Below, piece after piece: positions 39,755-55,474 of a DNA stretch of 64,000 bases (its first letter is position 1; each line of letters begins with the position of its first letter). Both the position numbers and the translations under genes were made by a program. Source of the stretch: Candidatus Microgenomates bacterium (GTDB taxonomy: Bacteria > Patescibacteriota > JACPGU01); the NCBI GenBank assembly GCA_016188915.1, contig JACPGU010000003.1, forward strand, positions 73,045 through 137,044, read 5' to 3'. The notes beneath the pieces are model-generated. The model was not told where the DNA came from, did not search any database, and saw nothing but the letters and a program-made list of their open reading frames with translations.

Positions 39755-40975
39755 CTACTTAATTGATAGAAATTCAACAAATCTTTCCTTCAGATATTCC
39801 ATCTGATCATCATTGAGCCCCTGATGACAAGCAACGACAAAGCCATTTTTCATGATATGCTCGGTGTTGGGAAACTCTGTTTTTGTTTCTTTCCTTTGAA
39901 TATTCTTAAAAGCAGGCTGCTTCAAGATGTTTCCGGTGAAGATAGGTCGTGTTTGGATATCGTTATTTTCCAGATACGTGACTAATTCTAGACGCGTGAA
40001 AGGCGCGTTTGGCTTAATAATGAGCGGGAAGGCAATCCAAGCCGTCTCGGTTTTCGGAGTTTGATTTGGCAAAGTGAAATATTTATTATTTTTCTTGAAA
40101 AATTCGTAAAGTGAGTTAAAATTCTTTCTCCTCTTCTCAAGGAAATCAGGCAATCTTTTTAATTGCTCTAAGGCAAAAGCAGCGGAAATCTCAAGGGGCA
40201 GGAAATTGTATCCTATTTCGCTAAAAATAAATTTATTATCGTATGGTATACCGTCTAATTTTGCTCGGAAACGATTTTCTAAAAGTTCAGAATTTGCTTT
40301 TTCGCCGAAAAGCGATGATTGTCTACCCCAGCCACGCATGACCACGAGCTTGTCTACCCACTTTTGGCTATTTACGCAAATCATTCCTCCTCCTCCCGCG
40401 CCGTTTATAATATGAGACCCATAGAAGCTTGTTGTTGAGATGTCAGAATAAGTACCAGAGGGTTTTCCGTTGTATGTTCCGCCGAGCGTGTCGCAAGAAT
40501 CTTCGATGAAAAAGAGATTATGTTTTTTTGCAATCTCGACCAATCTTTCCATATTTGGGATGTTGCCCATCAGAGAAGGAATCATTAATAGTTTTGTCTT
40601 TGAGGTTATAGCTTTTTCGATATCTTCTGGATTGATAATATAGGTATCGGGATCAACATCAATAAAAACAGGAACAATTCCCTTTTGGATGAGCGGCGCC
40701 ACTGTGGTGGCGAAAGTCAGAATAGGGGTAATCGCCTCACTCCCCTTTGGTAGGTCAAGAATTTCCAGAGCTAACAGATTGGCCGATGAACCAGAATTGA
40801 CCATCACACCATATTTTTTACCAAACATTTTGGCTATTTTTTCTTCAAATTCTTTTGTTTTGTCGCCTAGCGCTGTATTGCCTTCCAGAATCTTTACGAC
40901 CGCATCTATTTCTTCTTGCCCATGGACAGAATAACCATACGGGACTCTTATATTCGTTTTTTTTGCTTTTCGCAT
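39755..40975 (-). CDS. rfbH: DegT/DnrJ/EryC1/StrS-family PLP/PMP enzyme, RfbH/DdhC-like (CDP-6-deoxy-D-xylo-4-hexulose 3-dehydrase E1-like)
   Basis: IRVPYGYSVHGQEEIDAVVKIL...VNSGSSANLLALE...TSFYGSHIINGAGGGG closely follows the RfbH pattern. Confidence 0.7.
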   Translation of the reverse strand: MRKAKKTNIRVPYGYSVHGQEEIDAVVKILEGNTALGDKTKEFEEKIAKMFGKKYGVMVNSGSSANLLALEILDLPKGSEAITPILTFATTVAPLIQKGIVPVFIDVDPDTYIINPEDIEKAITSKTKLLMIPSLMGNIPNMERLVEIAKKHNLFFIEDSCDTLGGTYNGKPSGTYSDISTTSFYGSHIINGAGGGGMICVNSQKWVDKLVVMRGWGRQSSLFGEKANSELLENRFRAKLDGIPYDNKFIFSEIGYNFLPLEISAAFALEQLKRLPDFLEKRRKNFNSLYEFFKKNNKYFTLPNQTPKTETAWIAFPLIIKPNAPFTRLELVTYLENNDIQTRPIFTGNILKQPAFKNIQRKETKTEFPNTEHIMKNGFVVACHQGLNDDQMEYLKERFVEFLSIK

Positions 40976-41079: not shown

Positions 41080-42072
41080 ATGAAAATAGATTTTGATATA
41101 ACTGAAGAATGGAACAGATATGTTGCTAAAGGACTAATCAAAAATGTCTTCGAAAGCCATAATGGCAAAATCGAAGCAGGGTTACGATTGGGTCCAAACG
41201 GTCCAGAACAATATGTTGTTGATCTTGCTACCGGCAGAGATATCAGTGAGCCGCCGATATGTAAGCATTGCGATAACGGCATTGATTTTTTATATGATCA
41301 TTTCGGTGGTTTAAAACCCCATACTCCTTCCAAGTCCCCTGGAAAACAAGATGATCTACTCGAAGATGCCGATTCGTGTATCTTTGCATGTCAGAATCAA
41401 AATGTCCCACATTCTGTTTTGAGACGTACACCGCTATTACAAGTAGAACTACCCGGCTCTAAATGGTTTGCATTTCCAAATCTTACCCCGTGGGAATCGC
41501 GCGGGCTTTTATTGTGGGTTCCTGTGGTGCCAGATGGCGTTACGACTACTTTTCCACATAGACCCCAAGGATTAACTCGAGCTAGCATAGAGGATTTTCT
41601 GGAAATATCCCAATCAAGAAAAGATCTAGTCACTTTTTTTAACTCGCTTCACGGAGGTGCTTCCGTTAACCATCTACATTTCCAGAGTGTCTATTCTGAT
41701 CACAAAATGGCCGTTGAATTAGCAGCACTGGTTAAATGGGAAAAATATACTCTAGTTGATGGATATTTTGCTCCTGCTCTCTTTTTCGCGCTAGATTCTG
41801 ATATCGAGAAAATATGGGAACCAATTGAAAAAATTCAACAAGCCGGTATCCCCTATGATCTGATAGCACTTTCGAGCGGCACCTACCTTTTCATCAGAAA
41901 CATTAATCACGAAATTGTCGAAGAATTTCCCGGCAGAGGATTGGGCGGGATCAATTTTGCCGGACTGATTATCACAGCCGATAAAAAAGATTTTACGCGA
42001 GTAACAGAACAGGTAATTCGGTCTGCTTTTGCTAAAGCAACAATTGATCCTCGGAAACTTGATTTTTTGTAG
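41080..42072 (+). CDS. HIT-superfamily GalT-branch (HxHxQ) nucleotidyltransferase/phosphorylase-like protein, VTC2-like
   Basis: VNHLHFQSVY (His-x-His-x-Gln) and FAFPNLTPWESRGLLLWVP resemble the GalT / GDP-L-galactose phosphorylase family. Confidence 0.45.
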   Translation: MKIDFDITEEWNRYVAKGLIKNVFESHNGKIEAGLRLGPNGPEQYVVDLATGRDISEPPICKHCDNGIDFLYDHFGGLKPHTPSKSPGKQDDLLEDADSCIFACQNQNVPHSVLRRTPLLQVELPGSKWFAFPNLTPWESRGLLLWVPVVPDGVTTTFPHRPQGLTRASIEDFLEISQSRKDLVTFFNSLHGGASVNHLHFQSVYSDHKMAVELAALVKWEKYTLVDGYFAPALFFALDSDIEKIWEPIEKIQQAGIPYDLIALSSGTYLFIRNINHEIVEEFPGRGLGGINFAGLIITADKKDFTRVTEQVIRSAFAKATIDPRKLDFL

Positions 42073-42119
42073 CAGGGATGATAGAGTTAAGGTGAAAAAT
42101 CCAATGAGGAGGATGAGAA

Positions 42120-42932
42120 ATGCGACTTTTCGATGAGTATGGGAGGCGAATTCCGCTTCCGTGGATGAGGGTCTATAGTCAGATTTCCAGAAGATATTTT
42201 CAGCTGAACCAACCAATAATTGATTTTAGCGATGTTTATCGTCGCACTGTAAAGTATCTGGGATTGGGAGATCTGCCATTTTCCGACCAGCACTTTAAAA
42301 AAAAGTGTGAAGATTTATTACAGGGCTTACATGAAGACGGTGAGATTAGTGATATCGCCAAAGGTGTTCGTGTGCCATTCCTTTGCCCACCTCTACCGTC
42401 AGACACAAAAAGGGGCGAAGAACTAGTGAAACTAGCTGTAGCTGTCGAGAGATCTTTTAAAGATCGATTCCTCGAGTACGAGTTTTACAATCGCGTAGAG
42501 CCACAATTTCTGGCAGGAGATAATGTGGTGCTCGCGGTCGATTCTCGTTATGAGCGTTTCGAAGAAGCAAGGCGTCAAGGAGTGGTAGTCGGGTGGTACT
42601 TTCCTAACTGCCTTTCTGAATATGATCTAGCTTCACAACGCTCTCAGATGGCGACCTTGCCGATCTTCCATGGACATTTTGTTTTGAGTGGCGGGGTGGA
42701 GACAGCAACAGCACTAATTGGGTGTCCCGATCTACTTATGAATCGAGACGCTTATCCGCATCATCTCTGCCTATCGGCGCTTCAGGATATCGACGAGCGG
42801 TTTTTTTACTCTTTCGAGGCCTATGGGCTTAATCTGGTTTTCAATCGTCGCAGTAATGTACTGACTCCGAAGGTAGCGCAACTCTCGGAACAGTTTGCTG
42901 GTGGGCTCACAGTATTTACATCTTGGGAATAA
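42120..42932 (+). CDS. Hypothetical protein (270 aa)
   Basis: ORF only. RBS ggagga upstream. Co-directional and tightly spaced with its neighbours. Confidence 0.45.
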   Translation: MRLFDEYGRRIPLPWMRVYSQISRRYFQLNQPIIDFSDVYRRTVKYLGLGDLPFSDQHFKKKCEDLLQGLHEDGEISDIAKGVRVPFLCPPLPSDTKRGEELVKLAVAVERSFKDRFLEYEFYNRVEPQFLAGDNVVLAVDSRYERFEEARRQGVVVGWYFPNCLSEYDLASQRSQMATLPIFHGHFVLSGGVETATALIGCPDLLMNRDAYPHHLCLSALQDIDERFFYSFEAYGLNLVFNRRSNVLTPKVAQLSEQFAGGLTVFTSWE

Positions 42933-42943
42933 AGGAGAGACAG

Positions 42944-44071
42944 ATGGAAATAACGAATACGGCTCAATTGACACCGAGCCAGATCAAAGAAAGAGCCAAG
43001 TTGGAACAACGCTGGCCAAGGTCGTACGAAAAGCAACAGCGATTTGATGCCAACGCAGTAAACGGAGTTATCTCTCCAATTCTACGGCTATGTTGGAGTT
43101 TCCTCTGCAATTTTCATTGCGAACACTGTTGCGCCGAACACTATATGGATCGGCATTTAGTAAAAGTGACAGGATCAAAAGAGCAGAGGAGAGAACTCAA
43201 TCTCGATGATGTTCGTGATATCTCTCGTCAAGCAGATGAATATGGGATCTATCGATTTGTTTTGACTGGTGGAGAACCGACAACATGGAAAGACCTTTTT
43301 GCGGTGATCGAAGCGGTAGATCCGGCGAAACATTTAGTAATTCTCGATTCCAATGCATGGCTTCTTGATGAGAAGTTTGCCAGACGGCTCGCAGACGCAG
43401 GTGTTTATAAAATGCAGATTAGTTTGGACAGTTTCATTGAGGCAGAACATGATCTTTTCCGAAGTAAGCCAGGATCATACAGGCGCGTGATGCGAGCCAT
43501 TGAAGCGGTTCAGGAGACAGACATGAAGCTCATGCTTTCTACCTGTCTTATTCGTGGTAGAGCATCTACTCCGGAGTTCGAAAACCTGTGTAGGTTTGCA
43601 ACGGAACAGGGTATCATGCTTTATGTCACTTATGCGAAACCAGTTGGCACGCTCAAGGTCAATCACGAGGATTTCGTCATTACGAAAGAAGATGCCGACC
43701 ATGTGCGGGAGCTTGAGAAGCGCTATAATGTTACGACCCACATGACGCCTGCGTATATGCGAGGACAGGATGGGGTCCTTGGGCACTATGACGGCTGTAT
43801 CACGGTCAAGGGGATTAATACGATTACTTCTACGGGGGAGATCGTTCCTTGCCCCTACATGGACATGTCTATCGGCAATGTCCTTCGTGAGCCACTGGCT
43901 ACAATTCTTGATCGTGGCATGCGCAACAAATTTTTAGGACCGCACCGCAAGGACTGTCTGATCGGTGAAGACGCTGAATTCATAGAACGTCATAATCAAG
44001 CAGTTGAGGGTCGAGTCCAGCTTCCCGCGCCATACGGAGAAGGGTTCTCCGACAAGGACTTAATCGTTTAA
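42944..44071 (+). CDS. Radical SAM enzyme (CxxxCxxC) with C-terminal Cys-containing auxiliary (SPASM/twitch-like) region
   Basis: RBS aaggagaga then ATG 42944. CNFHCEHCC cluster. FVLTGGEPT glycine-rich motif. Late Cys residues (CITVKG...VPCPYMD). Confidence 0.7.
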   Translation: MEITNTAQLTPSQIKERAKLEQRWPRSYEKQQRFDANAVNGVISPILRLCWSFLCNFHCEHCCAEHYMDRHLVKVTGSKEQRRELNLDDVRDISRQADEYGIYRFVLTGGEPTTWKDLFAVIEAVDPAKHLVILDSNAWLLDEKFARRLADAGVYKMQISLDSFIEAEHDLFRSKPGSYRRVMRAIEAVQETDMKLMLSTCLIRGRASTPEFENLCRFATEQGIMLYVTYAKPVGTLKVNHEDFVITKEDADHVRELEKRYNVTTHMTPAYMRGQDGVLGHYDGCITVKGINTITSTGEIVPCPYMDMSIGNVLREPLATILDRGMRNKFLGPHRKDCLIGEDAEFIERHNQAVEGRVQLPAPYGEGFSDKDLIV

Positions 44072-44082
44072 CCTACCAATTT

Positions 44083-44127
44083 AATGGGGCTTTCTGCTTT
44101 GAGCAGTTGAGCCCCATAATTTTTTTC
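44083..44127 (+). terminator. Rho-independent terminator after the radical SAM gene
   Basis: tggggct...agcccca stem followed by taattttttt. Confidence 0.6.
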
Positions 44128-44240
44128 GCTATTTGTGCTAGATTGACACATTGCCATAAAAGAAGTAACCTTATCTCATGCAGATAGCCCCATAATGGCT
44201 CGCAATACTAGGAAATTATGAAAACTATATTTTTTGACGT

Positions 44241-45221
44241 ATGTCTGATTTTTACAAAGACAAGAAAACTATTTCGGTGGTAACTTCCTGCTTTAACGAA
44301 GAAGAGAATGTAGAAGAGTTATTTAGATCTATAGAAAAGGTGTTTCAGGACAATCCGAGATATATGTTTGAAGTTATCTTTATGGATAACGCATCAACGG
44401 ACTCAACGGCTAGTGTTCTTAGAAGGATAGCGAGTAGTGATAAGCGAGTAAAGGTGATTCTTAATGCGAAAAATTTTGGTCATATTCGCTCCCCTTATCA
44501 CGGATTACTTCAAACGAAAGGTGACGCTGTAGTTATGATGGCTTCTGACCTACAGGATCCACCAGAAATGATCGCTGATTTCGTCAAGGCATGGGAGAAT
44601 GGGGCCGATATTGTTGTTGGTATCAAAGATAAGAGCAAAGAAGGTCCGTTAATGTTTCTAGTTAGAAGAGTGTTTTACTACCTGAGCCACAAGATGTCTG
44701 AAACCGATTACATAAAAAACTTTACTGGTTTTGGTTTATACGATAAGAAGTTTGTCGATGTTCTGCGAGGACTAGATGAGCCATACCCTTACTTGCGAGG
44801 GTTAGTAGCGCAATTTGGCTCCAATATAGAAAAAATAAGGTTTACCCAACCGAAAAGAAAGGCAGGGAGGACAAAAAACAATTTCTATACTCTTTACGAT
44901 ATGGCTATGCTTGGTTTCGTGAATCATTCTAAGATCCCCATTCGATTAGCCAGCTTTATCGGCTTTACTGGCGCTTTTATGAGCTTTATGGTTGCAATTG
45001 CCTATTTCGCATACAAGCTAATTTATTGGAAAAGTTTTGAGGCAGGAGTTGCCCCTCTTGTTATTGGGTTTTTCTTTGTTTCGTCCATCCAACTGCTCTT
45101 TATCGGCATTATAGGAGAATATATTTCCTCTATTTACACTCAAGTAAAAAATCAACCACTAGTAATCGAAAAGGAGAGAATTAATTTTGAAGAAACTGAT
45201 ACAAAAACTTTGGGCCAATAG
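44241..45221 (+). CDS. GT2 polyprenyl-phosphate sugar synthase (DPM1/ArnC/GtrB-like) with C-terminal TM helices
   Basis: ISVVTSCFNEEENV, DNASTDSTASVL, DLQDPPE motifs plus two C-terminal TM segments. Confidence 0.75.
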   Translation: MSDFYKDKKTISVVTSCFNEEENVEELFRSIEKVFQDNPRYMFEVIFMDNASTDSTASVLRRIASSDKRVKVILNAKNFGHIRSPYHGLLQTKGDAVVMMASDLQDPPEMIADFVKAWENGADIVVGIKDKSKEGPLMFLVRRVFYYLSHKMSETDYIKNFTGFGLYDKKFVDVLRGLDEPYPYLRGLVAQFGSNIEKIRFTQPKRKAGRTKNNFYTLYDMAMLGFVNHSKIPIRLASFIGFTGAFMSFMVAIAYFAYKLIYWKSFEAGVAPLVIGFFFVSSIQLLFIGIIGEYISSIYTQVKNQPLVIEKERINFEETDTKTLGQ

Positions 45222-45609
45222 GTTTCTTCGTTTTCTGGTTGTTGGTTTTTTTAATACCGTATTTGGGTATTCCATCTTTGCGCTATTTATTTTTGTTGGC
45301 TATAATTATATTGTAGCTGCCATGCTCGGGACTATCGGCGGGATACTGTTTAACTTCAAATCGGTTGGCGTAATTGTATTTAAAAGTCATAATAATGCCC
45401 TGATATTCAGATTTTTTGCGGTTTATGGCGTTGTCTATTTATTCAATCTTACAGGCATCAAAATCTTTGCTGATTATGGAATTGGTAGTTACATTGCGGG
45501 TGCAATTTTGGTCTTACCTGCCGCAGCAATCGGCTATCTCCTCAATAAAAAATTTGTTTTTAATCGGACCCCGATAGACATAAAAGAAGATGAACATATC
45601 TCGGCCTAA
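45187..45609 (+). CDS. GtrA-family membrane protein (polyprenyl-sugar flippase-associated)
   Basis: FLRFLVVGFFNTVFGYSIFALFIF is GtrA-like. 4 TM helices. Confidence 0.7.
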   Translation: MKKLIQKLWANRFLRFLVVGFFNTVFGYSIFALFIFVGYNYIVAAMLGTIGGILFNFKSVGVIVFKSHNNALIFRFFAVYGVVYLFNLTGIKIFADYGIGSYIAGAILVLPAAAIGYLLNKKFVFNRTPIDIKEDEHISA

Positions 45610-45670: not shown

Positions 45671-46441
45671 ATGAAAACAATAATTCTTTGTGGAGGGCAA
45701 GGGACAAGAATGAAAGAGGAGACCGAATTCAAGCCAAAACCATTGGTTCTTATTGGCGGTAAGCCGATTTTGTGGCATATCATGAAAATCTACTCACACT
45801 ACGGTTTTAACGAATTTATCCTGGCATTGGGATATAAGGGCAATATGATTAAGGAATATTTCCTTAATCAAAGGACTTTTTTAAATGACTTCACCCTAAA
45901 TACCAAAGACAATAAGATCACTTTCCACAACAACGATCACGGTGACTTTAAGATTACTTTTATTGACACTGGCCTTGAAACATTGCCTGGAGAACGGATT
46001 TTACGTTGCAAACCATATATCCCAAAGGAGGATACTGATTTTATGGTCACCTACGGCGATGGCGTGTCTGATATTAATATCGACAATTTACTAGAATTTC
46101 ATCGTCGACAAAAAACTATTGGGACAATCATGGGGATAAATCCTCGTTTCAAATTTGGAACAGTATTGGTAAAACCAGACAATAAGATCTCAAAGTTTTC
46201 GGAAAAACCGGTCTTGGAGGATTGGATTAATGGAGGATTTATGGTTTTTAACAAAAAAGTATTTTCCTATATCAATCCCGGTGAGACAGAACATGCCGCG
46301 CTCAAGAGATTGTCGAGAAAGGGTGAACTTTCGTTATTTAGACACAATGGTGCTTGGGCGTGCATGGATACACACAAAGAACATGCGGAACTCAATAAAC
46401 GCTGGCTCAAAGATCCCTTTTGGAGAGTATGGGAAAAATAA
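45671..46441 (+). CDS. rfbF: Glucose-1-phosphate cytidylyltransferase
   Basis: MKTIILCGGQGTRMKEETEFKPKPLVLIGGKPILWHIMKIYSHYGFNEFILALGYKGNMIKEYF is near-canonical RfbF/DdhA. Confidence 0.85.
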   Translation: MKTIILCGGQGTRMKEETEFKPKPLVLIGGKPILWHIMKIYSHYGFNEFILALGYKGNMIKEYFLNQRTFLNDFTLNTKDNKITFHNNDHGDFKITFIDTGLETLPGERILRCKPYIPKEDTDFMVTYGDGVSDINIDNLLEFHRRQKTIGTIMGINPRFKFGTVLVKPDNKISKFSEKPVLEDWINGGFMVFNKKVFSYINPGETEHAALKRLSRKGELSLFRHNGAWACMDTHKEHAELNKRWLKDPFWRVWEK

Positions 46442-46443
46442 TC

Positions 46444-47412
46444 ATGGCTATAATGAAAAATCATTTTGCAAAGAAAAATGTCTTAATTACGGGCGCAACT
46501 GGTTTGGTTGGTGGTCATATCGCAGACAAATTAGTCGAGCAAGGCGCCAACGTGTTCATCACCTATCGTTCCCATAATCCCAAGTCGTTTTTTGTCCAAA
46601 AAGAATTGAGAGACAAAGTTGTGAGCGCTAAGTGTGATATCAAGGATTATCACCGGGTATTTGACGTTGTCTCTAAATATGAGATTGGTTATATATTTCA
46701 TGTCGCCGCCCAACCTATAGTACCCACCGCCTACATCAACCCAAAAGAGGCCCTAGAGGTCAATATATTAGGTACAGTCAATATTTTGGAGGCGACAAGA
46801 CACTGCTCGCAAGTCAAAGGGGTGGTTGTTGCTTCTTCCGATAAGGCGTATGGTAAAAAGTGCGACAACGCTACAGAGGAAGAACCAATGGCAGGAGATC
46901 ATCCTTATGATGTTTCCAAATCATGCGCTGATCTTATAGCTAGAGCGTATGCCAAGACCTACCACCTACCGGTTGCCGTGAGTCGTTTTGGCAACATCTA
47001 TGGACCAGGGGATTTGAATATCAATCGGATTATTCCTGGTATTATGAAAGCGCTTATTCATAATGAGATCATTGAGATTCGCAGCGATGGCTCATTTATC
47101 CGCGACTATGTTTATGTCAAAGATGTGGCCGATGGCTATCTTGCGCTGATGGAAAATATAGAAAAAAATAAAGGAGAAGCCTTTAATTTTAGCAGCGGTC
47201 ACAATTTCTCCGTATTAGAATTAATCGAGAAGATTTCAAAAATTGTTGGCAAAAAATGTAAGTACAAAATATTAGATAATCAAAAAAATGAGATTCCAAA
47301 ACAAAGTTTGAATTTTGATAAAGCGAAAGAGCTTCTTAACTGGAAGCCAAAATATACTTTTGAAGAGGGGATTAGGGAAACATTTGAGTGGTATAAGAAT
47401 TTTTATAAATAA
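46444..47412 (+). CDS. rfbG: CDP-glucose 4,6-dehydratase
   Basis: VLITGATGLVGGHIADKL Rossmann motif. HVAAQPIVPTAYINPKEALEVNILGTVNILEATR matches RfbG/DdhB. ATG 46444 follows the rfbF stop; alternative upstream TTG 46420. Confidence 0.8.
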   Translation: MAIMKNHFAKKNVLITGATGLVGGHIADKLVEQGANVFITYRSHNPKSFFVQKELRDKVVSAKCDIKDYHRVFDVVSKYEIGYIFHVAAQPIVPTAYINPKEALEVNILGTVNILEATRHCSQVKGVVVASSDKAYGKKCDNATEEEPMAGDHPYDVSKSCADLIARAYAKTYHLPVAVSRFGNIYGPGDLNINRIIPGIMKALIHNEIIEIRSDGSFIRDYVYVKDVADGYLALMENIEKNKGEAFNFSSGHNFSVLELIEKISKIVGKKCKYKILDNQKNEIPKQSLNFDKAKELLNWKPKYTFEEGIRETFEWYKNFYK

Positions 47413-47425
47413 CTCAAAAATATTT

Positions 47426-48955
47426 ATGAAAAAAAGTTTCGATTTTGCAAGAAATTTTAATTCATCTGATGGCCAACCCATTTTTATACTAGAAATGGCT
47501 AATAATCATATGGGAGATGTGGATCATGGCCTGAGAATTATTGAGGAAATGAGCAAAGTTACAAAAAAATATGACTTCCTCTTTGCCTTTAAATTTCAAT
47601 ATCGCGATCTTGAAACTTTTATCCACCCTGATTATAAGAAACGAATGGACTTGAAATATGTTAAAAGATTTTCCGAAACTCGTCTTTCCGAAAAAGATTT
47701 TTTGATCCTAAAAGCAGAAGCTCAGAAGCTTGGTTTCATTACTATGTGTACACCGTTTGATGAGGTATCGGTTGATATGGTGGTCAAGCATGATTATGAT
47801 ATTCTAAAAGTGGCGAGTGCATCTTGTGGCGATTGGCCATTATTGGAAAAGATAGTGTCCACCGATAAGCCGATTATTTTCTCGACCGGTGGGGCAAAAC
47901 TTGAAGAAATAGACAAAATTGTCAGTTTCTTAGAGCATAGACAGAAGACCTTTGCTCTGGAGCATTGTGTGGGCGAATACCCAACATTGGCAAGAAATCT
48001 TCAGTTGAATCAGATAGATCTGCTCAGAAGAAGATATCCCAATACGACTGTGGGTTTTTCCACACACGAAGAACCAGACAATGTCGAGGCCGTCAAAATC
48101 GCTATCGCCAAAGGCGCGCGTATTTTCGAAAAACATGTTAGTGTTAGAACTGATAAATACGAGATGAACGCCTATTCGGCTAATCCAAAGCAGGTTGATA
48201 AATGGTTACAGTCGGCCAAAGAGGCATATGAAATGTGCGGAATTGTCGGCGAACGAGCACCTTCATCAGAAAAAGAACTGGCTGATATTCGACAGTTTCA
48301 GCGAGGTGTCTTCGCCAAAGATGTAATCAGAAAAGGAGAGAGAGTCGACACAAAAAATACATTTTTTGCTTTTCCGAATCAACCTGGGCAGATTTTAACC
48401 AATGATTTGTCGAAATATTCTGTTTTTACGGCTTTGAAGCAAATTAAAAAAAATGATCCAGTGATAGATGTCAGCAGAGTGGATACAAGAGATAAGGTAT
48501 ATGAGATAGTAGTCAAATCAAGAAATATGTTGGCGGATGCCAAGATTTCCGTTTCCAATCAGCTTGACTTTGAGATCAGCCATCACTATGGCCTCGATAG
48601 ATTTTACGAAGTGGGGGCGGTTATTATCACTTGCGTAAATCGCGAATACACCAAAAAATTAATTATCGTTTTTCCTGGTCAATCACACCCGTCTCATGGG
48701 CACAAACAAAAAGAAGAGACGTTCCATGTTTTGTCTGGAACTATCATTTTTATACTAGATGGTAAGGAACGAGAAGCAAAAGCTGGAGATGTAGTGGTAG
48801 TAGAAAGAGGTGTTAAACATTCATTTTATTCCAAAGAGGGGAGTATCTTTGAAGAGGTTTCCACTACCCATATCAAAAGCGACTCATTCTATGAAGATGA
48901 AAGTATTTCGAAAAACAAAAACAGAAAAACAGAACTCACTTATTGGGTTGATTAA
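47426..48955 (+). CDS. NeuB-family PEP-dependent (ulosonic) acid synthase with SAF domain and extra C-terminal cupin domain
   Basis: IFILEMANNHMGDVDHG, FITMCTPFDEVSVDMV, IIFSTGGAKLEEID, HCVGEYPT follow the NeuB/PseI pattern. C-terminal VFPGQSHPSHGHKQKEETFHVLSGT is a cupin motif. Confidence 0.65.
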   Translation: MKKSFDFARNFNSSDGQPIFILEMANNHMGDVDHGLRIIEEMSKVTKKYDFLFAFKFQYRDLETFIHPDYKKRMDLKYVKRFSETRLSEKDFLILKAEAQKLGFITMCTPFDEVSVDMVVKHDYDILKVASASCGDWPLLEKIVSTDKPIIFSTGGAKLEEIDKIVSFLEHRQKTFALEHCVGEYPTLARNLQLNQIDLLRRRYPNTTVGFSTHEEPDNVEAVKIAIAKGARIFEKHVSVRTDKYEMNAYSANPKQVDKWLQSAKEAYEMCGIVGERAPSSEKELADIRQFQRGVFAKDVIRKGERVDTKNTFFAFPNQPGQILTNDLSKYSVFTALKQIKKNDPVIDVSRVDTRDKVYEIVVKSRNMLADAKISVSNQLDFEISHHYGLDRFYEVGAVIITCVNREYTKKLIIVFPGQSHPSHGHKQKEETFHVLSGTIIFILDGKEREAKAGDVVVVERGVKHSFYSKEGSIFEEVSTTHIKSDSFYEDESISKNKNRKTELTYWVD

Positions 48956-50897: not shown

Positions 50898-52085
50898 GTG
50901 AATAGTATCAAAAACGCCAAAAAAAGCAGCGTGAAGAATACAGACACATCCCAAGCGAAGTGCAGGGTTTGTGGTTGGGAATTATTTGGAAAACCGCTTT
51001 TGGAGTACGACAATATGCCTAGCGTCGCACAACATTTGCCAGACACAGATTCTCTCAAAGATGATAATGGTGTTGATCTGAGAGTTTATCAATGCTCTGG
51101 ATGCGGCGTGGTGCAACTAGATAGTAAACCAGTACCATATTATAAAGAGGTGATTCGCGCTTCTGGTTTTTCTCAAGAGATGAAAGATTTTCGGCTGAAG
51201 CAATTCAGGGACTTTGTCGCTAAATTTTCTCTTAAAGATAAAAATATTCTTGAAGTGGGGTGTGGAGGAGGAGAATACCTGTCTCTAATGAAAGAGTGCG
51301 CAGCAAATTCCTCGGGCATAGAATATTCCGATAGTTTAGTAAAAAAATGCGCAGAAGGTGGTCTTAATGTCTCGAAAGGATTTGTTGAGGATAGCAGTTA
51401 TATTGTAAACAATGCTCCCTTTGATGCATTTTTTATGATAAGCTCTCTAGAACATTTGCCAGATCCGAACAAAACACTTCGAGGAATATATAATAATTTG
51501 ACTGATGGGGGGGTGGGGATTGTCGAAGTGCCAAATTTTGATATGATTTTGCGCAACAACCTTTTCTCCGAATTTATGCGTGATCATTTATTTTATTTCA
51601 CCAGAGAAACTCTTGTCGTCTTACTCAATTTGAACGGATTTGAAGTCATTAAGTGTAATGAAGTATGGCATGACTATATTATTTCAGCGATTGTGAGGAA
51701 AAGAAGTAATCTGGATCTTACGCTTTTTTCGGAAAATCAAAATAAACTAAAAAAAGAAGTTAATAACTATATTGGAAAATTCGAAAAAAATAAAGTAGCT
51801 ATCTGGGGCGCTGGTCACCAGGCCTTTGCGATCATGTCATTATTCGATCTAGGAGGGAAGATCAAATACGTTGTTGATTCTGCACCCTTCAAACAAGGGA
51901 AATTTACGCCAGCAACCCATATTCCTATCGTTTCTTCGGATAAACTACATTCGGATCCGGTTAGCGCTATTATTGTTATGGCAGGTAGCTATTCTGATGA
52001 AATCGTCAAAATTGTCAGAGAAAATTATCATCAAGATATGAAAGTAGCTATTTTGAGGGACTTTGGGTTAGAAATAATCTCATAA
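50898..52085 (+). CDS. NDP-hexose C-methyltransferase (TylCIII-like: Zn-binding N-domain, SAM MTase, C-methyltransferase C-domain)
   Basis: CRVCGWEL...YQCSGCGVVQLD Zn-binding domain. VLEVGCGGGEYL SAM motif. C-terminal domain like PF08484. Confidence 0.65.
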   Translation: MNSIKNAKKSSVKNTDTSQAKCRVCGWELFGKPLLEYDNMPSVAQHLPDTDSLKDDNGVDLRVYQCSGCGVVQLDSKPVPYYKEVIRASGFSQEMKDFRLKQFRDFVAKFSLKDKNILEVGCGGGEYLSLMKECAANSSGIEYSDSLVKKCAEGGLNVSKGFVEDSSYIVNNAPFDAFFMISSLEHLPDPNKTLRGIYNNLTDGGVGIVEVPNFDMILRNNLFSEFMRDHLFYFTRETLVVLLNLNGFEVIKCNEVWHDYIISAIVRKRSNLDLTLFSENQNKLKKEVNNYIGKFEKNKVAIWGAGHQAFAIMSLFDLGGKIKYVVDSAPFKQGKFTPATHIPIVSSDKLHSDPVSAIIVMAGSYSDEIVKIVRENYHQDMKVAILRDFGLEIIS

Positions 52086-52089
52086 TACT

Positions 52090-53142
52090 ATGTCTGTACT
52101 ATCAACCGATCTTTGTCACATTCTCGATTTGACTCGTGAGTCATGGGAAGATCTCCGAGGAAAACGGCTATTCATGACCGGGGGAACCGGTTTTTTTGGC
52201 AGTCATCTTTTAGAAAGTTTCGCATTTGCCAATAAAGAGCTAAATCTCAACGCCTCTGTCCTTGTGCTGACTAGGGATATAAAGAATTTTAAAAAAACAG
52301 CGCCTCATTTAGTAAAAAATTCGGCTATCAAATTTCATCTCGGCGATGTGAAGGACTTCAATTTCCCTGATGGCGAATTTTCTCATATAATTCATGCGGC
52401 TGCCACATCAGCTGTTGAAACTTTCAATAGAGAAGATCATCTAGCAAAATTCGATACTCTCGTCGGCGGGACGAGGCATGTACTCGACTTTGCCGTTCAT
52501 TGCAAAGCGCAGAAATTTCTTTTTACCAGTTCCGGAGCTGCTTATGGCAAACAACCAGCCGATATGACCCATATTTCAGAAGAATATCTTGGGGCGCCAA
52601 ACCCTCCAGACCCCAATTCTGCATGGGGCGAAGGTAAGCGGGTGGCTGAATTTCTTTGTGGCTATTATTCAAACAAGTATGGTATTGAGACAAAAATAGT
52701 GCGATGTTTTAGCTTCGTTGGTCCATATTTACCCATAGATATTCATTACGCTATAGGGAATTTTATCCGAGACGCTTTAAAAGGGGGGCCTATTATCGTC
52801 AGTGGCGATGGGTCTCCGGTAAGATCCTATCTCTATTCATCTGACCTTGTGGTCTGGCTCTGGACCATTCTTTTCAAAGGAAAGACCCGCAGAATATATA
52901 ATATTGGTTCAGGAGAGAGTATTACTATCGCGGAATTAGCTAATGTCGTGGCACAATCATTGGGACCCAACATTGAAGTGAAGATAGAAAAAACGCCCGA
53001 CCACAATAAAGTACTGGAAAGATACATTCCGGACATTAGTTTGGTGAAAAAAGAATTAGGGCTGGTACAAACGATAGATCTGAAGACCGCTATTAAAAAA
53101 ACAGCAGAGCACATCCAGAAAAATAATAAGTTATATCACTAA
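52090..53142 (+). CDS. NAD(P)-dependent sugar epimerase/reductase (SDR extended family)
   Basis: LFMTGGTGFFGSHLLE Rossmann. YGKQPADMTH...K catalytic Y-x3-K. Confidence 0.7.
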   Translation: MSVLSTDLCHILDLTRESWEDLRGKRLFMTGGTGFFGSHLLESFAFANKELNLNASVLVLTRDIKNFKKTAPHLVKNSAIKFHLGDVKDFNFPDGEFSHIIHAAATSAVETFNREDHLAKFDTLVGGTRHVLDFAVHCKAQKFLFTSSGAAYGKQPADMTHISEEYLGAPNPPDPNSAWGEGKRVAEFLCGYYSNKYGIETKIVRCFSFVGPYLPIDIHYAIGNFIRDALKGGPIIVSGDGSPVRSYLYSSDLVVWLWTILFKGKTRRIYNIGSGESITIAELANVVAQSLGPNIEVKIEKTPDHNKVLERYIPDISLVKKELGLVQTIDLKTAIKKTAEHIQKNNKLYH

Positions 53143-53151
53143 ATAATTCTT

Positions 53152-54822
53152 ATGAAACTCAGTGATTATGTTGTCAAATTCATAAAAGACGAGGTGGCTG
53201 ATTCGGTTTTTGTATTATCGGGTGGAGGAATAATGCACATTATTGATTCGTTGGGCAAATCAAATATTAACACATACTGCTGTCATCATGAACAAGGGGC
53301 AGTTATAGCCGCCGAAGGATATGGTCGGATAAGAAACCATCCCGGGGTAGCCGTGGTTACGACTGGTCCTGGTGGGACCAACGCCATCACCGGTGTTGCC
53401 GGAGCGTGGCTCGACAGTGTACCGATGATGGTGATATGCGGTCAGGTAAAAACAGATAACATTACCCCTAGAAGTAATGGGATCCCAGCGCAAAGAGCAA
53501 TAGGTCTCCAGGAACTAAATAATACAGATATTGCGCGTCCTATAACTAAATATACCGTAACCGTCACCGATCCAGATTCAATAAAATACCACCTTCAAAA
53601 AGCTCTACATATTGCCATATCTGGACGTCCCGGTCCTGTTTGGATTGAAATACCTCTCGATATTACGACGGCAGAAATTGACCCAGAGAAATTACAAGGA
53701 TATAAACCAAAGCCGTTATCGGAATTTGTCGAACCCAAGATACCGATGGATATTATTATCGAAAAGCTAAAAAAAGCAAAAAAGCCATTATTGATGGCAG
53801 GATATGGTATCCGTCTGGCTGGTGGAGTGCAAGTTTTAGAAAAAATATTGAAAAAATACGAATTTAACGTGGTAACCCCAATTTTTACCGCGGACGATCT
53901 GGTAACACATGATTATGTAAAATATTTAGGTAGGCAAGGCATGCCAGGGAATTATTCCGCAAATTACGCTGTCGACAATTGTGACGTGCTCTTGGTTGTT
54001 GGCGAAAGGATACAATTAACGCAGACATCATTTGACTACAAAAATTTTGCTATCCAGGCGACAAAAATAATGGTTGATATAGACGAATCAGAGCTTTACA
54101 AAAAAACTCTAGCCATAGATATTCCAGTCCATTGTGATGCAAAAATATTTCTTGAAGAGCTTTTGAAATATGACTTTAAGCTAAATAAATGGAATGTGGA
54201 ACGCGACAAAATCAATCTGGCTGATTATTCTTGTGGCAAAAAATATCTCAATGTCTATAAATTTATCGACGAAATCGAAAAATACTCTGGTCTTATGCCT
54301 ATCTCCACGGCCGATGGCATGGCGAGCTTGGTTCCTCACCAAGCTTTGAGAATTCACAAAAGACAACGTTTTATTACAAATGCTGGCCTTGGGCACATGG
54401 GGTCTGGACTTCCAATGGCCATTGGAGCGTGTATTGCCGAAGGTAAAAGACCAACAATTTGTTTCGAGGGAGATGGTTCGATAATGCTTAATATTCAAGA
54501 GCTTCAAACGATTATTTATCACAAACTACCGATTAAGATCTTCATTTTCAGCAACGATGGTTATTATTCAATCAGAGGTACTCATACGCGATTCTTTAAT
54601 AAGGTTTTTGCTGCCGATCCATCCTCTGGTGTGGGGATGCCAGACTTTTCGAAATTAATCCTCGCGTGGGGACTGAAGTATGAAAAAATCGCAAGTGATG
54701 ACGAGCTGATAAAATTAAAATCAGTAATGGATTACGAAGGACCGATTGTTTGTGAATTAATGATATCTCCCAACCAGCCAATGCTACCAAAATGGACAGC
54801 GGGACAATTAAGAGATAAATAA
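53152..54822 (+). CDS. Thiamine-diphosphate-dependent enzyme of the acetolactate-synthase large-subunit family (YerE-like candidate)
   Basis: Three-domain TPP-enzyme layout. C-terminal ThDP-binding GLGHMGSGLPMAIG...FEGDGS...N motif. Confidence 0.7.
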   Translation: MKLSDYVVKFIKDEVADSVFVLSGGGIMHIIDSLGKSNINTYCCHHEQGAVIAAEGYGRIRNHPGVAVVTTGPGGTNAITGVAGAWLDSVPMMVICGQVKTDNITPRSNGIPAQRAIGLQELNNTDIARPITKYTVTVTDPDSIKYHLQKALHIAISGRPGPVWIEIPLDITTAEIDPEKLQGYKPKPLSEFVEPKIPMDIIIEKLKKAKKPLLMAGYGIRLAGGVQVLEKILKKYEFNVVTPIFTADDLVTHDYVKYLGRQGMPGNYSANYAVDNCDVLLVVGERIQLTQTSFDYKNFAIQATKIMVDIDESELYKKTLAIDIPVHCDAKIFLEELLKYDFKLNKWNVERDKINLADYSCGKKYLNVYKFIDEIEKYSGLMPISTADGMASLVPHQALRIHKRQRFITNAGLGHMGSGLPMAIGACIAEGKRPTICFEGDGSIMLNIQELQTIIYHKLPIKIFIFSNDGYYSIRGTHTRFFNKVFAADPSSGVGMPDFSKLILAWGLKYEKIASDDELIKLKSVMDYEGPIVCELMISPNQPMLPKWTAGQLRDK

Positions 54823-54823
54823 T

Positions 54824-55474
54824 ATGAAATATACCAACATTATCTTTGATTTCGATGGGACATTAGTTGATACGAGACCCGGGATAATAAAGGCTTTTTA
54901 TGCTGTCATGACTGATATGGGTATAGAGCCGGCCGATGAAAAGACTATTGGTGAGCTAATAGGAGTCCCATTATCTCAATTTCTTGAAGTTCTCCTAAAA
55001 ACTAATGATGCCAAAATCATTAAGAAAGGGTCAGAATTATTCAAAAAACATTATGATAGAGAATATTCTTCTGACAATATTTTGTATCCCGGTATTCCGG
55101 AGTTACTAGAAAATATTAAGGAAAACTCTGGTAGCAGTTTTGTTGTTAGTAATAAAATAGATGCTTTCTTGAATAAAATATTAGAACAGCATGATATTAG
55201 AAAATATTTCCAATCCACCAAGGGAACTGATGGGACAGGAAGAGGCTCTCAAAAATCTGATTACGTCAGGGATTTGGTTGAAGAAAATAATCTAGATCGA
55301 GCTATAACTGTCATTGTAGGTGATAGGAGAGATGATGTAGTAGCAGGAAAAGACAACCTGATACATACTGTAGGCATAACCTATGGCTATGGCTCAAGGG
55401 AAGAATTAGAGGAAGTGGGAGCTGAGATTGTAGTCAGAGATGTTGAGGGCCTGAAGAGTGTTTTGATGGAATAA
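54824..55474 (+). CDS. HAD-superfamily phosphatase
   Basis: IIFDFDGTLVDT motif I. Later GDRRDDV motif. Confidence 0.7.
   Translation: MKYTNIIFDFDGTLVDTRPGIIKAFYAVMTDMGIEPADEKTIGELIGVPLSQFLEVLLKTNDAKIIKKGSELFKKHYDREYSSDNILYPGIPELLENIKENSGSSFVVSNKIDAFLNKILEQHDIRKYFQSTKGTDGTGRGSQKSDYVRDLVEENNLDRAITVIVGDRRDDVVAGKDNLIHTVGITYGYGSREELEEVGAEIVVRDVEGLKSVLME

What the first reader, a model, noticed from the sequence alone, without database searches (positions are those of the whole stretch)
41080..44127. Three-gene higher-GC insert in the glycan locus: HxHxQ GalT/VTC2-like HIT protein, unknown protein, radical SAM enzyme, own terminator
Genes 41080..42072, 42120..42932 and 42944..44071 are co-directional, tightly spaced and end in a strong intrinsic terminator. 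By eye they are ~46-48% GC against ~35-38% for the flanking glycosyltransferase genes. The first carries VNHLHFQ, the His-x-His-x-Gln variant that distinguishes GalT / GDP-L-galactose phosphorylase (VTC2)-type nucleotidyltransferase-phosphorylases from canonical HIT hydrolases. This is rarely annotated in bacteria. The radical SAM has CxxxCxxC plus late Cys residues (a possible auxiliary cluster). The middle protein has no recognisable family. This looks like a self-contained, possibly horizontally acquired sugar-nucleotide modification module.
Basis: partly seen in the sequence, partly recalled or inferred. Interest (0 to 1): 0.55.

Follow-up and report, generated by a model that had tools for sequence, protein, structure and literature searches.

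The report
Sugar-nucleotide trimming enzyme plus radical-SAM pair
Three adjacent genes in a cell-surface glycan locus are scattered parts of a larger, uncharacterised rare-sugar pathway found in many uncultured bacteria: an enzyme that probably strips the nucleotide handle off an activated sugar, and a radical-SAM enzyme with an obligate partner protein that matches no known family or solved fold.

Summary
The three ORFs, their spacing, the HxHxQ and CxxxCxxC motifs and the terminator are real. The GC claim holds only in part. g1 is 41.2% GC, equal to the window mean. g2 and g3 are 46-47%, about +1 sd against all window genes, and the excess is mostly at first codon positions.

g1 is a GalT-branch HIT protein: its model matches yeast Apa2 (E 1e-8) and 20 of 21 family members hit DUF4922, the GDPGP1/VTC2 domain. 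g2 has no Pfam, NCBIfam or PDB match despite a pLDDT 95.8 model. g3 is a radical SAM enzyme with four further invariant Cys.

The trio is not a self-contained module. g2 and g3 are the real unit: they are adjacent in nearly all loci and fused in one protein (P0229). They travel with a C-methyltransferase and an SDR, and usually with CDP-glucose genes, a NeuB-cupin fusion and a YerE-like ThDP enzyme. All of these lie at 45.6-55.5 kb in this window.

g1 occurs in only one clade. Every other locus carries a Gmm-like NUDIX in the equivalent position. I infer that g1 replaced that NUDIX and cleaves a CDP-sugar. The chemistry of the g2-g3 pair is unresolved.

The parts
39755..40975 (-). DegT-family PLP/PMP enzyme, divergent from g1. 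Probably a ColD/E1-type CDP-4-keto-6-deoxyglucose 3-dehydratase rather than an aminotransferase.
   Evidence: Pfam DegT_DnrJ_EryC1 at 1e-81. Best NCBIfam hit is RfbH, 360 bits against a cut-off of 423. The translation reads SFYGSHII where aminotransferases carry the Schiff-base Lys, and has only 3 Cys. The assignment of that motif position is from my own knowledge of the family.
41080..42072 (+). g1: GalT-branch HIT protein, GDPGP1/VTC2- and Apa2-like. Proposed CDP-hexose phosphorylase or nucleotidyl-transferase.
   Evidence: Invariant NHLHFQ (H198, H200, Q202) plus invariant C100, C104, H160, Q163. AF2 pLDDT 89.3. Foldseek top hits are yeast Apa2 4i5t/4i5v/4i5w (E 1e-8, TM 0.55-0.61), then a GalT-like uridylyltransferase 6k5z. 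DUF4922 is hit by 20 of 21 family members. Precomputed GDPGP1_N and GDPGP1_C hits on homologues.
42120..42932 (+). g2: obligate partner of the radical SAM enzyme. No described family and no fold match.
   Evidence: No Pfam, NCBIfam or PDB-profile hit. AF2 pLDDT 95.8 with no Foldseek match in PDB or BFVD (best E 0.74 and 0.78). 597 clusters at 50% identity in 1.8e9 representatives. Fused to a g3 orthologue in P0229. The N-terminal LFDxxGRRIP is conserved, so the start is 42120; the public annotation (255 aa) starts 15 codons too late.
42944..44071 (+). g3: radical SAM enzyme with a Twitch-like or partial SPASM C-terminal domain.
   Evidence: Radical_SAM 70 bits and SPASM 23.9 bits, both above cut-off. 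No NCBIfam equivalog: best is NirJ2 at 96 bits against a cut-off of 500. Nearest solved structures are BlsE 7vob (E 5e-10) and MoaA 1tv7 (2e-8). Invariant C55/C59/C62 plus C216/C285/C303/C338, with mean column identity 68%.
44084..44127 (+). Intrinsic terminator ending the g1-g2-g3 transcription unit.
   Evidence: 14-bp bulged stem followed by T7. dG -22 kcal/mol, z = -4.9.
44241..45609 (+). GT2 (ArnC/GtrB-like) and a GtrA-family membrane protein. Likely route of the finished sugar onto polyprenyl phosphate (inference).
   Evidence: Pfam Glycos_transf_2 and GtrA_DPMS_TM. The same pair flanks the trio in L001 and also occurs in L017 and L036.
45671..47412 (+). Glucose-1-phosphate cytidylyltransferase-like and CDP-glucose 4,6-dehydratase-like genes, the entry to CDP-sugar chemistry.
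   Evidence: TIGR02623 at 268 bits (cut-off 300) and TIGR02622 at 222 bits (cut-off 278). Relatives are present in most related loci.
47315..48955 (+). NeuB-family synthase fused to a cupin domain.
   Evidence: Pfam NeuB plus Cupin_2. 48-73% identical orthologues in 13 related loci.
50898..53142 (+). TylC3-type sugar C-methyltransferase and an SDR (here called Epim2). Together with g2 and g3 these form the near-universal core.
   Evidence: Pfam Methyltransf_13/23/14 and Epimerase. Both are present with g2-g3 in most adequately sampled loci.
53152..55474 (+). Three-domain ThDP enzyme (acetolactate-synthase/YerE-like) and a HAD phosphatase.
   Evidence: Pfam TPP_enzyme_N/M/C and HAD_2. NCBIfam acetolactate synthase hit at 339 bits, below cut-off. 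Fits the YerE/ErwE scheme in PMC9306805.

Best explanation
The three genes are components of a conserved, uncharacterised pathway that builds a modified, C-methylated and probably acyl-branched or chain-extended deoxysugar from CDP-glucose for a surface glycan.

Shown by homology and context:
- RfbF-like and RfbG-like enzymes and a ColD/E1-like DegT would make CDP-4-keto-(3,)6-(di)deoxyglucose.
- A TylC3-type C-methyltransferase and an SDR tailor it.
- A NeuB-cupin fusion, a YerE-like ThDP enzyme and a HAD phosphatase accompany them in most loci.

g2 and g3 form one two-component radical SAM enzyme. g3 uses the CxxxCxxC cluster and SAM to abstract a hydrogen atom from the sugar intermediate, and a second cluster on the four extra invariant Cys acts in substrate binding or electron transfer. 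g2 is physically coupled to g3 and either binds the substrate or processes the radical product, in a MoaA/MoaC-like division of labour. The partnership is shown. The chemistry is inferred.

g1 is a GalT-branch HIT enzyme that attacks the alpha-phosphate of a CDP-sugar through His200. It releases sugar-1-phosphate and passes the nucleotidyl group to phosphate, acting as a phosphorylase, as GDPGP1/VTC2 do with GDP-hexoses. It took over, in a single clade, the role played elsewhere by a Gmm-like NUDIX: removing the nucleotide from a pathway intermediate. The freed sugar may then feed the NeuB-type condensation, by analogy with nonulosonic-acid pathways. This last step is speculative.
For: g1 fold and motif: with Pfam names. 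HxHxQ as the GalT-branch signature and the phosphorylase mechanism of GGP and GDPGP1 come from PMC10069634 and PMC7041677.

g2-g3 unit: the two are adjacent or in the same cluster in all adequately sampled loci. P0229 is a full-length fusion, 54% identical to g3 and 36% to g2.

Pathway context. Co-occurrence tables. Literature scheme for CDP-4-keto-3,6-dideoxyglucose plus alpha-keto acid plus ThDP enzyme plus reductase plus SAM methyltransferase: PMC9306805.

HIT/NUDIX displacement:
- A 173-aa NUDIX lies next to the C-methyltransferase in all 13 g1-less loci, and is also flanked by the SDR in most of them.
- Its best NCBIfam hit is GDP-mannose mannosyl hydrolase in 4 of 4 tested.
- It is absent from the window and from all 9 other g1-bearing loci by tblastn. 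A profile HMM finds nothing in 9 of these 10, and in L001 hits only the divergent 212-aa NUDIX-like protein.
- g1 lies directly beside the SDR in L002, L004, L007, L010, L025, L028 and L031.
- HIT-bearing loci form one clade in the g3 tree.

More distant g1 homologues (about 32-37% identity) again sit with RfbF, a 4,6-dehydratase and sugar C-methyltransferases or with NeuB-cupin, ThDP enzyme, RfbF and RfbG (L036).
Against: No enzyme here has been assayed, and no glycan structure is known from any carrier, all of which are MAGs or SAGs.

The window's own g1 scores below the DUF4922 gathering cut-off (20.3 against 23.6 bits).

The HIT/NUDIX exclusivity reduces to one evolutionary swap, so it is a single event and not 23 independent observations. 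L001, L007 and L036 also carry a second, divergent NUDIX-like protein.

L009 and L018 have the NUDIX but no NeuB or ThDP gene within about 20 kb. Nucleotide removal therefore cannot be solely a preparation for NeuB.

The RfbF, RfbG and RfbH assignments are all below NCBIfam equivalog cut-offs.

Nothing identifies the g2-g3 substrate or reaction type. A quality-control role for g1, as proposed for GDPGP1, fits the same data.
Confidence: 0.55

Rival explanations
1. One reading: a self-contained three-gene sugar-nucleotide modification cassette acquired horizontally as one unit with its own terminator.
For: The three genes are contiguous and terminated here and in L001. g2 and g3 are GC-richer than the surrounding glycan genes.
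Against: g1 has window-average GC and low GC3. In L002, L004, L010, L025 and L028 the three genes are interleaved with the C-methyltransferase and SDR. Thirteen loci have g2-g3 without g1. Distant g1 homologues occur without g2-g3. No flanking repeats were found.
Confidence: 0.08
2. g1 is not on the pathway. It is a quality-control or pool-regulating enzyme that destroys mis-made or surplus CDP-sugars. This is the role proposed for GDPGP1 with GDP-glucose, and for the NUDIX Gmm/WcaH in colanic-acid loci.
For: GDPGP1 is described as a nucleotide-sugar quality-control phosphorylase (Adler et al. 2011, cited in PMC7041677). The protein g1 replaces is Gmm-like. Both are dispensable in the sense that either one suffices. 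NUDIX-bearing loci L009 and L018 lack NeuB, so removal is not always followed by a condensation step.
Against: One or the other enzyme is present in every adequately sampled locus (10 plus 13), embedded between or next to the C-methyltransferase and the SDR, sometimes with overlapping stop and start (L004, L018). That pattern is more typical of a pathway step. This is only weak evidence, because gmm is also conserved inside its operon (my own knowledge).
Confidence: 0.25
3. g1 works in the GalT direction. It exchanges CMP from CDP-glucose onto a novel sugar-1-phosphate, so it activates a sugar rather than stripping one.
For: [quoted passage not shown] Kinase-like (AAA_33) and phosphatase genes occur in some loci.
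Against: The enzyme it replaces is a NUDIX hydrolase, which cannot activate sugars. RfbF is retained alongside g1. No sugar-1-kinase is conserved across the loci.
Confidence: 0.1
4. g2-g3 is a peptide or protein maturase, like most SPASM/Twitch enzymes, that merely happens to lie in glycan loci. g2 would be its substrate or a recognition protein.
For: g3's NCBIfam neighbours include several RiPP maturases, such as PqqE, MftC and sactisynthases. SkfB is among the PDB hits.
Against: g2-g3 co-occurs with a sugar C-methyltransferase, an SDR and CDP-glucose genes in most related loci spanning at least 7 distinct lineages. g2 is a 270-aa, well-folded, highly conserved protein and not a precursor peptide. 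The best solved relatives act on nucleoside-sugar or nucleotide substrates (BlsE, MoaA).
Confidence: 0.05

Closest known systems
GDP-L-galactose phosphorylase (VTC2/GGP) and GDP-D-glucose phosphorylase GDPGP1 (Pfam DUF4922, GDPGP1_N, GDPGP1_C)
   Same: HxHxQ motif in an almost identical context (NHLHFQ). DUF4922 and GDPGP1_N/C profile hits across the family. Two-domain GalT-branch fold. The expected reaction is NDP-hexose plus Pi giving NDP plus hexose-1-P.
   Different: The family is bacterial and rare: 24 clusters at 90% identity in 5.8e9 proteins. The window protein scores below the Pfam cut-off. It is embedded in CDP-sugar, not GDP-sugar, glycan loci. It has an invariant CxxxC...H...H set (C100, C104, H160, H198) reminiscent of the GalT zinc site; that comparison is from memory and was not tested.
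Yeast Ap4A phosphorylase Apa2 (PDB 4i5t, 4i5v, 4i5w) and GalT-type uridylyltransferases (6k5z)
   Same: Best structural matches: E 1e-8, probability 1.0, TM 0.55-0.61. Weak ATP_transf and Ap4A_phos_N profile hits in family members.
   Different: Only 11-13% sequence identity. No dinucleoside-polyphosphate context. PDB sequence and profile searches find nothing.
GDP-mannose mannosyl hydrolase Gmm/WcaH (NUDIX) of colanic-acid loci
   Same: This is the functional analogue that g1 appears to have displaced. A small NUDIX whose best NCBIfam hit is Gmm sits beside the SDR and C-methyltransferase in all g1-less versions of the pathway. Both enzyme types strip the nucleotide from an NDP-hexose.
   Different: Unrelated fold and mechanism: hydrolysis against phosphorolysis through a covalent His-NMP intermediate. 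The Gmm similarity of the NUDIX is weak (16-32 bits against a cut-off of 146) and its Nudix box is degenerate.
MoaA/MoaC (GTP 3',8-cyclase and its partner) and other Twitch radical SAM enzymes acting on sugars or nucleosides (BlsE, BtrN)
   Same: CxxxCxxC plus a C-terminal CX12GX4C-type motif with few extra Cys. MoaA and BlsE are the nearest solved relatives. A dedicated non-radical partner is encoded next door and sometimes fused. MoaA-MoaC fusions are known from my own knowledge.
   Different: Scores are far below every equivalog cut-off. g2 is unrelated to MoaC and to any solved fold by Foldseek. Substrate and reaction are unknown.
Acyl-branched sugar pathways (yersiniose YerE/YerF; erwiniose, caryophyllose, gastriose)
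   Same: CDP-glucose genes, a 3-dehydratase, a three-domain ThDP enzyme, an NAD(P)H reductase and a SAM methyltransferase lie in one glycan locus, as in the scheme of PMC9306805.
   Different: Here a NeuB-cupin fusion stands where those clusters have a class II pyruvate aldolase. None of the described clusters is reported with a radical SAM/g2 pair, a HIT or a NUDIX. L009 and L018 carry the core without the ThDP enzyme.

Membership tests
HIT superfamily, GalT/Apa/GDPGP1 branch | HxHxQ in place of HxHxHxx, with the second His as nucleophile | tested here: met
   VNHLHFQ at 196-202. H198, H200 and Q202 are invariant in 21 sequences down to 32% identity. The motif definition is from PMC10069634.
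HIT superfamily, GalT/Apa/GDPGP1 branch | Single-chain two-domain GalT/Apa2-type fold | tested here: met
   AF2 model with pLDDT 89.3 and pTM 0.90. Six Apa2 chains match at E 1e-8 to 5e-8, probability 1.00, TM 0.48-0.61. The next hit is the GalT-like 6k5z at E 3e-3.
GDPGP1/VTC2 family (Pfam DUF4922, GDPGP1_N, GDPGP1_C) | Score above the Pfam gathering threshold | tested here: inconclusive
   The window protein scores 20.3 bits against a cut-off of 23.6. Homologues P0003 (25.3) and P0023 (30.7) pass. 20 of 21 members hit at E<=1. Precomputed GDPGP1_C hits are unmarked (E<=1e-5) for P0022 and P0023.
GDPGP1/VTC2 family | NDP-hexose phosphorylase activity through a covalent nucleotidyl-His intermediate | not testable with these tools
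   Needs an enzyme assay.
Radical SAM superfamily | CxxxCxxC cluster motif and the Radical_SAM domain | tested here: met
   C55-x3-C59-x2-C62 is invariant. PF04055 scores 70.2 bits against a cut-off of 29.5.
SPASM subfamily (two auxiliary clusters, 7-Cys motif) | CX9-15GX4C followed by CX2CX5CX3C...C | tested here: not met
   The SPASM HMM scores 23.9 bits against 21.5, but only four extra Cys are invariant (C216, C285, C303, C338). C285-x12-G-x4-C303 fits only the first half of the motif, and there is no CX2CX5CX3C. This is Twitch-like, with at most one auxiliary cluster. The motif definition is from my own knowledge.
Any named radical SAM equivalog (NirJ, AhbD, MoaA, BlsE, PqqE and others) | Score above the NCBIfam curated cut-off | tested here: not met
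   Best is NirJ2 at 95.6 bits against 500. MoaA scores 84 against 284 and BlsE 42.8 against 400.
Any described protein family, for g2 | A sequence-profile or fold match | tested here: not met
YerE-type acyl-branched CDP-sugar pathway | Co-located genes for CDP-4-keto-3,6-dideoxyglucose, a ThDP carboligase, a reductase and a keto-acid-forming enzyme | tested here: inconclusive
   All gene classes are present. However, RfbF, RfbG, RfbH and the ThDP enzyme all score below equivalog cut-offs, and the keto-acid maker would be a NeuB-cupin fusion, which no described example uses.

The most novel reading that the evidence does not exclude
g2-g3 is a previously undescribed two-component radical SAM system. 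Its partner protein has a new fold. It performs a new C-H or C-C transformation on a CDP-deoxysugar, or on the sugar once freed, within a widespread and unrecognised pathway to a higher-carbon or branched C-methyl sugar. Carriers range from CPR bacteria to Acidobacteria, Methylophilaceae and Prochlorococcus. In one clade the pathway recruited the first bacterial GDPGP1/VTC2-type phosphorylase as an on-pathway nucleotide-removal step, replacing a Gmm-like NUDIX.
Probability: 0.35. Interest if true: 0.75.

Novelty: new variant of a known kind. Interest (0 to 1): 0.6.

Why it matters
GDPGP1/VTC2-type enzymes are known from plants and animals, where they act in ascorbate synthesis and GDP-glucose quality control. 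A bacterial relative wired into a CDP-sugar glycan pathway, and interchangeable with a NUDIX, would give a concrete and testable physiological role for this branch in bacteria.

The g2-g3 pair defines an unannotated family with about 600 sequence clusters for g2 and more than 900 close g3 relatives. The model is confident, no known fold matches it, and a natural fusion shows that the two proteins work together. That makes it a clean target for discovering new radical sugar chemistry.

The surrounding gene set predicts an undescribed rare sugar on the surfaces of many uncultured bacteria, including reduced-genome CPR lineages and marine picocyanobacteria. This bears on phage and grazer recognition and on glycan diversity.

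Tried and rejected

PDB sequence searches. Neither the single-sequence nor the profile search gave a meaningful hit for g1, and the profile search gave none for g2.

Plasmid collection. No relatives of g1 or g2 were found.

Literature. Searches for a radical SAM enzyme in CDP-sugar, O-antigen or caryophyllose biosynthesis found nothing relevant to g2-g3. One query was rejected for syntax.

Context of the distant g2 subfamily with an N-terminal extension. The only contig carrying P0265 is 1.9 kb long.

Mobile-element signatures around the trio. Only short chance repeats were found. The duplicated 11-mer AGCCCCATAAT is not significant, since 38 of 100 shuffles reach 2 matches at one mismatch or fewer.

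Non-coding RNA in 38-47 kb. The only hit is a sub-threshold eukaryotic snoRNA match, which I take as chance.

Remote g1-like proteins (24-30% identity over the C-terminal 140 residues; L044-L103). None of the 25 long loci carries g2, g3, the C-methyltransferase or the SDR, so they were set aside as a different subfamily.

A RiPP-maturase reading of g3 was considered and rejected on context (see the rival explanations).

Full report
OBSERVATION

They are separated by 47 and 11 bp, and Shine-Dalgarno-like GAGGAGG and AAGGAG precede g2 and g3. After g3 a bulged 14-bp hairpin at 44084-44117 is followed by seven T. It folds at -22 kcal/mol against -10.0 +/- 2.5 for shuffles (z = -4.9).

The composition claim holds only in part.
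- The window is 41.2% GC. g1 is 41.2% with GC3 0.317, g2 is 46.1% and g3 is 47.2-47.3%.
- Against the other 39 large ORFs (mean 41.3%, sd 5.1) the z-scores are 0.0, +1.0 and +1.2.
- Against the 18 genes of the AT-rich glycan locus (mean 38.3%, sd 3.1) g2 and g3 are +2.5 and +2.9 sd.
- The excess sits mainly at first codon positions (0.59 and 0.56). GC3 of g2 and g3 is matched by neighbouring genes.
- The sliding profile places the rise from about 42250 to the terminator, which excludes g1.

No flanking repeats or non-coding RNAs were found.

WHAT EACH PROTEIN IS

g1 has only 24 relatives (clusters at 90% identity) among 5.8 billion proteins. The identical entry is an unnamed protein of a 'Candidatus Microgenomates' MAG. 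Twenty-one family members down to 32% identity share invariant C100, C104, H160, Q163 and NHLHFQ (H198, H200, Q202).

The window protein hits Pfam DUF4922 just below threshold (20.3 against 23.6 bits). Two homologues pass, and 20 of 21 hit at E<=1. Three members each also show weak hits to the Apa2 families ATP_transf and Ap4A_phos_N. Precomputed annotations name GDPGP1_N and GDPGP1_C. DUF4922 is the domain of plant GGP/VTC2 and animal GDPGP1 (PMC7041677). HxHxQ is the GalT-branch signature, with the second His as the nucleophile (PMC10069634).

An AlphaFold model (pLDDT 89.3) matches yeast Ap4A phosphorylase Apa2 at E about 1e-8 and TM 0.55-0.61, and then a GalT-like uridylyltransferase.

g3 is a radical SAM enzyme with a weak SPASM hit. 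It reaches no NCBIfam equivalog. Its nearest solved relatives are BlsE and MoaA. Besides C55/C59/C62, four Cys are invariant (C216, C285, C303, C338), and C285-x12-G-x4-C303 fits only the first half of the SPASM motif. This is a Twitch-like domain with at most one auxiliary cluster. The family is large: 916 hits at E<1e-20.

CONTEXT AND CO-OCCURRENCE

The window's locus from 28 to 57 kb encodes the following:
- an O-antigen-ligase-like protein;
- an initiating phosphoglycosyl transferase;
- a Wzm/Wzt-type ABC exporter;
- large glycosyltransferases.

Downstream of the trio it encodes a further set:
- a GT2 and a GtrA-family protein;
- glucose-1-phosphate cytidylyltransferase-like and CDP-glucose 4,6-dehydratase-like genes;
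- a NeuB-cupin fusion;
- a B12-radical SAM protein;
- a TylC3-type C-methyltransferase;
- an SDR;
- a three-domain ThDP enzyme;
- a HAD phosphatase.

The divergent DegT upstream of g1 scores best against RfbH. It carries His where aminotransferases have the Schiff-base Lys (SFYGSHII). I read this as a ColD/E1-type 3-dehydratase.

I collected 43 related loci that are informative here (L001-L043), plus 60 remote ones, from contig look-ups, a GTDB scan with the g2 profile and a metagenome scan with the g1 profile. I tabulated homologues by tblastn. The results:

(i) g2 and g3 are together in every adequately sampled locus, usually adjacent in either order. P0229 is a single 632-aa protein made of a full-length g3 orthologue (54% identity) followed by a full-length g2 orthologue (36%).

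(ii) The C-methyltransferase and the SDR accompany them in most adequately sampled loci. NeuB-cupin and the ThDP enzyme are present in most loci, and CDP-glucose genes in many.

(iii) g1 is found with g2-g3 only in the window, L001, L002, L004, L007, L010, L025, L028, L030 and L031. These form one clade in a g3 tree. Only in the window and L001 are the three genes contiguous.

(iv) Carriers span CPR (Microgenomates, Doudnabacteria), Ignavibacteriales, Acidobacteria, Beta- and Gammaproteobacteria and Prochlorococcus. All are MAGs or SAGs.

THE HIT/NUDIX SWAP

In all 13 g1-less loci a 173-aa NUDIX protein sits next to the C-methyltransferase, and in most of them the SDR flanks it on the other side. 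Its best NCBIfam hit is GDP-mannose mannosyl hydrolase in 4 of 4 tested, though weakly, and its Nudix box is degenerate.

tblastn finds no such gene in the 64-kb window or in any other g1-bearing locus. A profile HMM built from the 13 sequences finds nothing in 9 of the 10 g1-bearing loci. Its only hits belong to a second, divergent NUDIX-like subfamily in L001 and in L036, which carries only a 33%-identity g1 homologue. L007 also carries a NUDIX-like protein, detected by Pfam.

g1 itself lies directly beside the SDR in seven of the ten loci, with overlapping stop and start in L004.

I read this as an in-situ non-orthologous displacement. Two unrelated enzymes whose known relatives both strip the nucleotide from an NDP-hexose occupy the same slot of the same pathway. 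Because the HIT loci are monophyletic, this is one event, not many.

More distant g1 homologues (about 32-37% identity) are again embedded among RfbF, a 4,6-dehydratase and sugar C-methyltransferases, or among NeuB-cupin, ThDP enzyme, RfbF and RfbG (L036). This supports a CDP-sugar substrate.

MECHANISM: SHOWN AND INFERRED

Shown:
- g1 has the fold and catalytic motif of GalT-branch nucleotidyl-transferring enzymes.
- g2 and g3 are a physical and functional pair.
- All three belong to a larger conserved CDP-sugar gene set.

Inferred:
- g1 phosphorolyses, or otherwise transfers CMP from, a tailored CDP-hexose to release sugar-1-phosphate. A HAD phosphatase is present in every locus type.
- One attractive use of the freed sugar is PEP condensation by the NeuB-cupin enzyme, as in nonulosonic-acid pathways where a hydrolase precedes NeuB. 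The resulting 2-keto acid could then serve the YerE-like ThDP enzyme as a donor, extending the published scheme for acyl-branched sugars (PMC9306805). L009 and L018 lack NeuB and the ThDP enzyme, so this cannot be the only use.
- For g2-g3 I favour hydrogen abstraction from a sugar carbon by g3, with g2 binding the substrate or processing the product, in a MoaA/MoaC-like arrangement. The reaction type is not determinable from sequence. It could be oxidation, epimerisation, dehydration or C-C formation.
- GT2, GtrA and the 652-aa multi-pass membrane protein upstream suggest that the sugar is delivered through a polyprenyl-phosphate carrier.

HORIZONTAL TRANSFER

In this window there is no convincing compositional anomaly. 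In L001, L004, L011 and L014, however, g2-g3 are 10-17 GC points and up to 0.35 GC3 units above their neighbours, while g1 is host-like. In very AT-rich hosts g2-g3 are fully host-like. The g2-g3 pair therefore does seem to be exchanged between lineages. L004 remains unexplained, because there a host-like C-methyltransferase lies between two GC-rich genes.

VERDICT

The family call for g1 is right. The 'self-contained acquired three-gene module' is not. What is there is more interesting than an insert. It comprises an unannotated radical SAM/partner system with a partner that matches no solved fold, a bacterial GDPGP1-type enzyme that replaced a NUDIX, and a widespread pathway to an unknown rare sugar.

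I rate it as a new variant of known kinds (HIT phosphorylase; two-component radical SAM; branched-sugar pathway), with interest 0.6. Confidence in the composite explanation is 0.55.

Noticed in passing
window 47315-48955: A NeuB-family synthase is fused to a C-terminal cupin instead of the usual SAF domain. Orthologues at 48-73% identity sit beside a YerE-like ThDP enzyme in 13 related loci. It may make the keto-acid donor for sugar branching.
   Followed up: partly
window 49023-50732: A B12-binding radical SAM protein with C-terminal TPR repeats. Its best NCBIfam hits are a P-methyltransferase family (127 bits against a cut-off of 575) and HpnJ. It is present in only some related loci (L007, L008, L016).
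   Followed up: no
L018 1276-1797, L009 12808-13329 and 11 other loci: A conserved 173-aa Gmm-like NUDIX with a degenerate Nudix box (G-x5-E-x7-KVAESELG) always lies next to the C-methyltransferase. It is mutually exclusive with g1.
   Followed up: yes
L001 5377-6015; L007 11145-12341; L012 and L013 near 12.0-12.6 kb; L036 3667-4700: A second, divergent NUDIX-like subfamily, tandemly duplicated in L007 and L036. It occurs in both HIT-type and NUDIX-type loci but not in the window.
   Followed up: partly
L004 16435-19714; also L001, L011, L014: g2 and g3 are strongly GC3-rich (0.65-0.76) in AT-rich host loci. The C-methyltransferase lying between them in L004 is host-like (0.40). This is not explained by a single insertion.
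   Followed up: partly
window 42120-42164: The public annotation of g2 (HYV44_03255, 255 aa) starts 15 codons downstream of the conserved N-terminus LFDxxGRRIP.
   Followed up: yes
window 39755-40975: The DegT-family protein has His in place of the Schiff-base Lys and only 3 Cys. This suggests a ColD-like 3-dehydratase that needs no E3 reductase, and no E3-like gene is evident in the locus.
   Followed up: partly
window 33931-37815: A 1294-aa multi-domain glycosyltransferase (GT4 plus WbsX) with an internal tandem repeat, IQEKDKVILLQEKYLHDKEDI, between the domains.
   Followed up: no
window 57459-58157: An IS200-like Y1 transposase ORF lies at the downstream edge of the glycan locus, immediately before alaS.
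   Followed up: no
window 37778-39736: A 652-aa multi-pass membrane protein with no Pfam hit lies next to the DegT gene. It may be a GT-C-type transferase for a polyprenyl-phosphate-linked sugar. Related loci carry PMT_2, GT87 or MptA_B proteins.
   Followed up: no
window 25778-27892 (-) and 60302-61603 (-): These are the two most GC-rich ORFs of the window (52.7% and 53.7%). The second has no Pfam hit. The first was not examined and could be a spurious antisense ORF.
   Followed up: no
L003 and L005/L006: Distant g1 homologues (32-37% identity) sit with RfbF and two or three sugar C-methyltransferases and no radical SAM/g2. L003 adds an SDR (Epimerase/GDP_Man_Dehyd), SAM synthetase and MTHFR genes. 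L005 adds a 4,6-dehydratase and a DAO-family oxidase. These are different CDP-sugar pathways using the same HIT enzyme.
   Followed up: partly
window 44110-44120 and 44186-44196: An exact 11-mer, AGCCCCATAAT, forms the 3' arm of the terminator and recurs 76 bp downstream. It is not significant against shuffles.
   Followed up: yes
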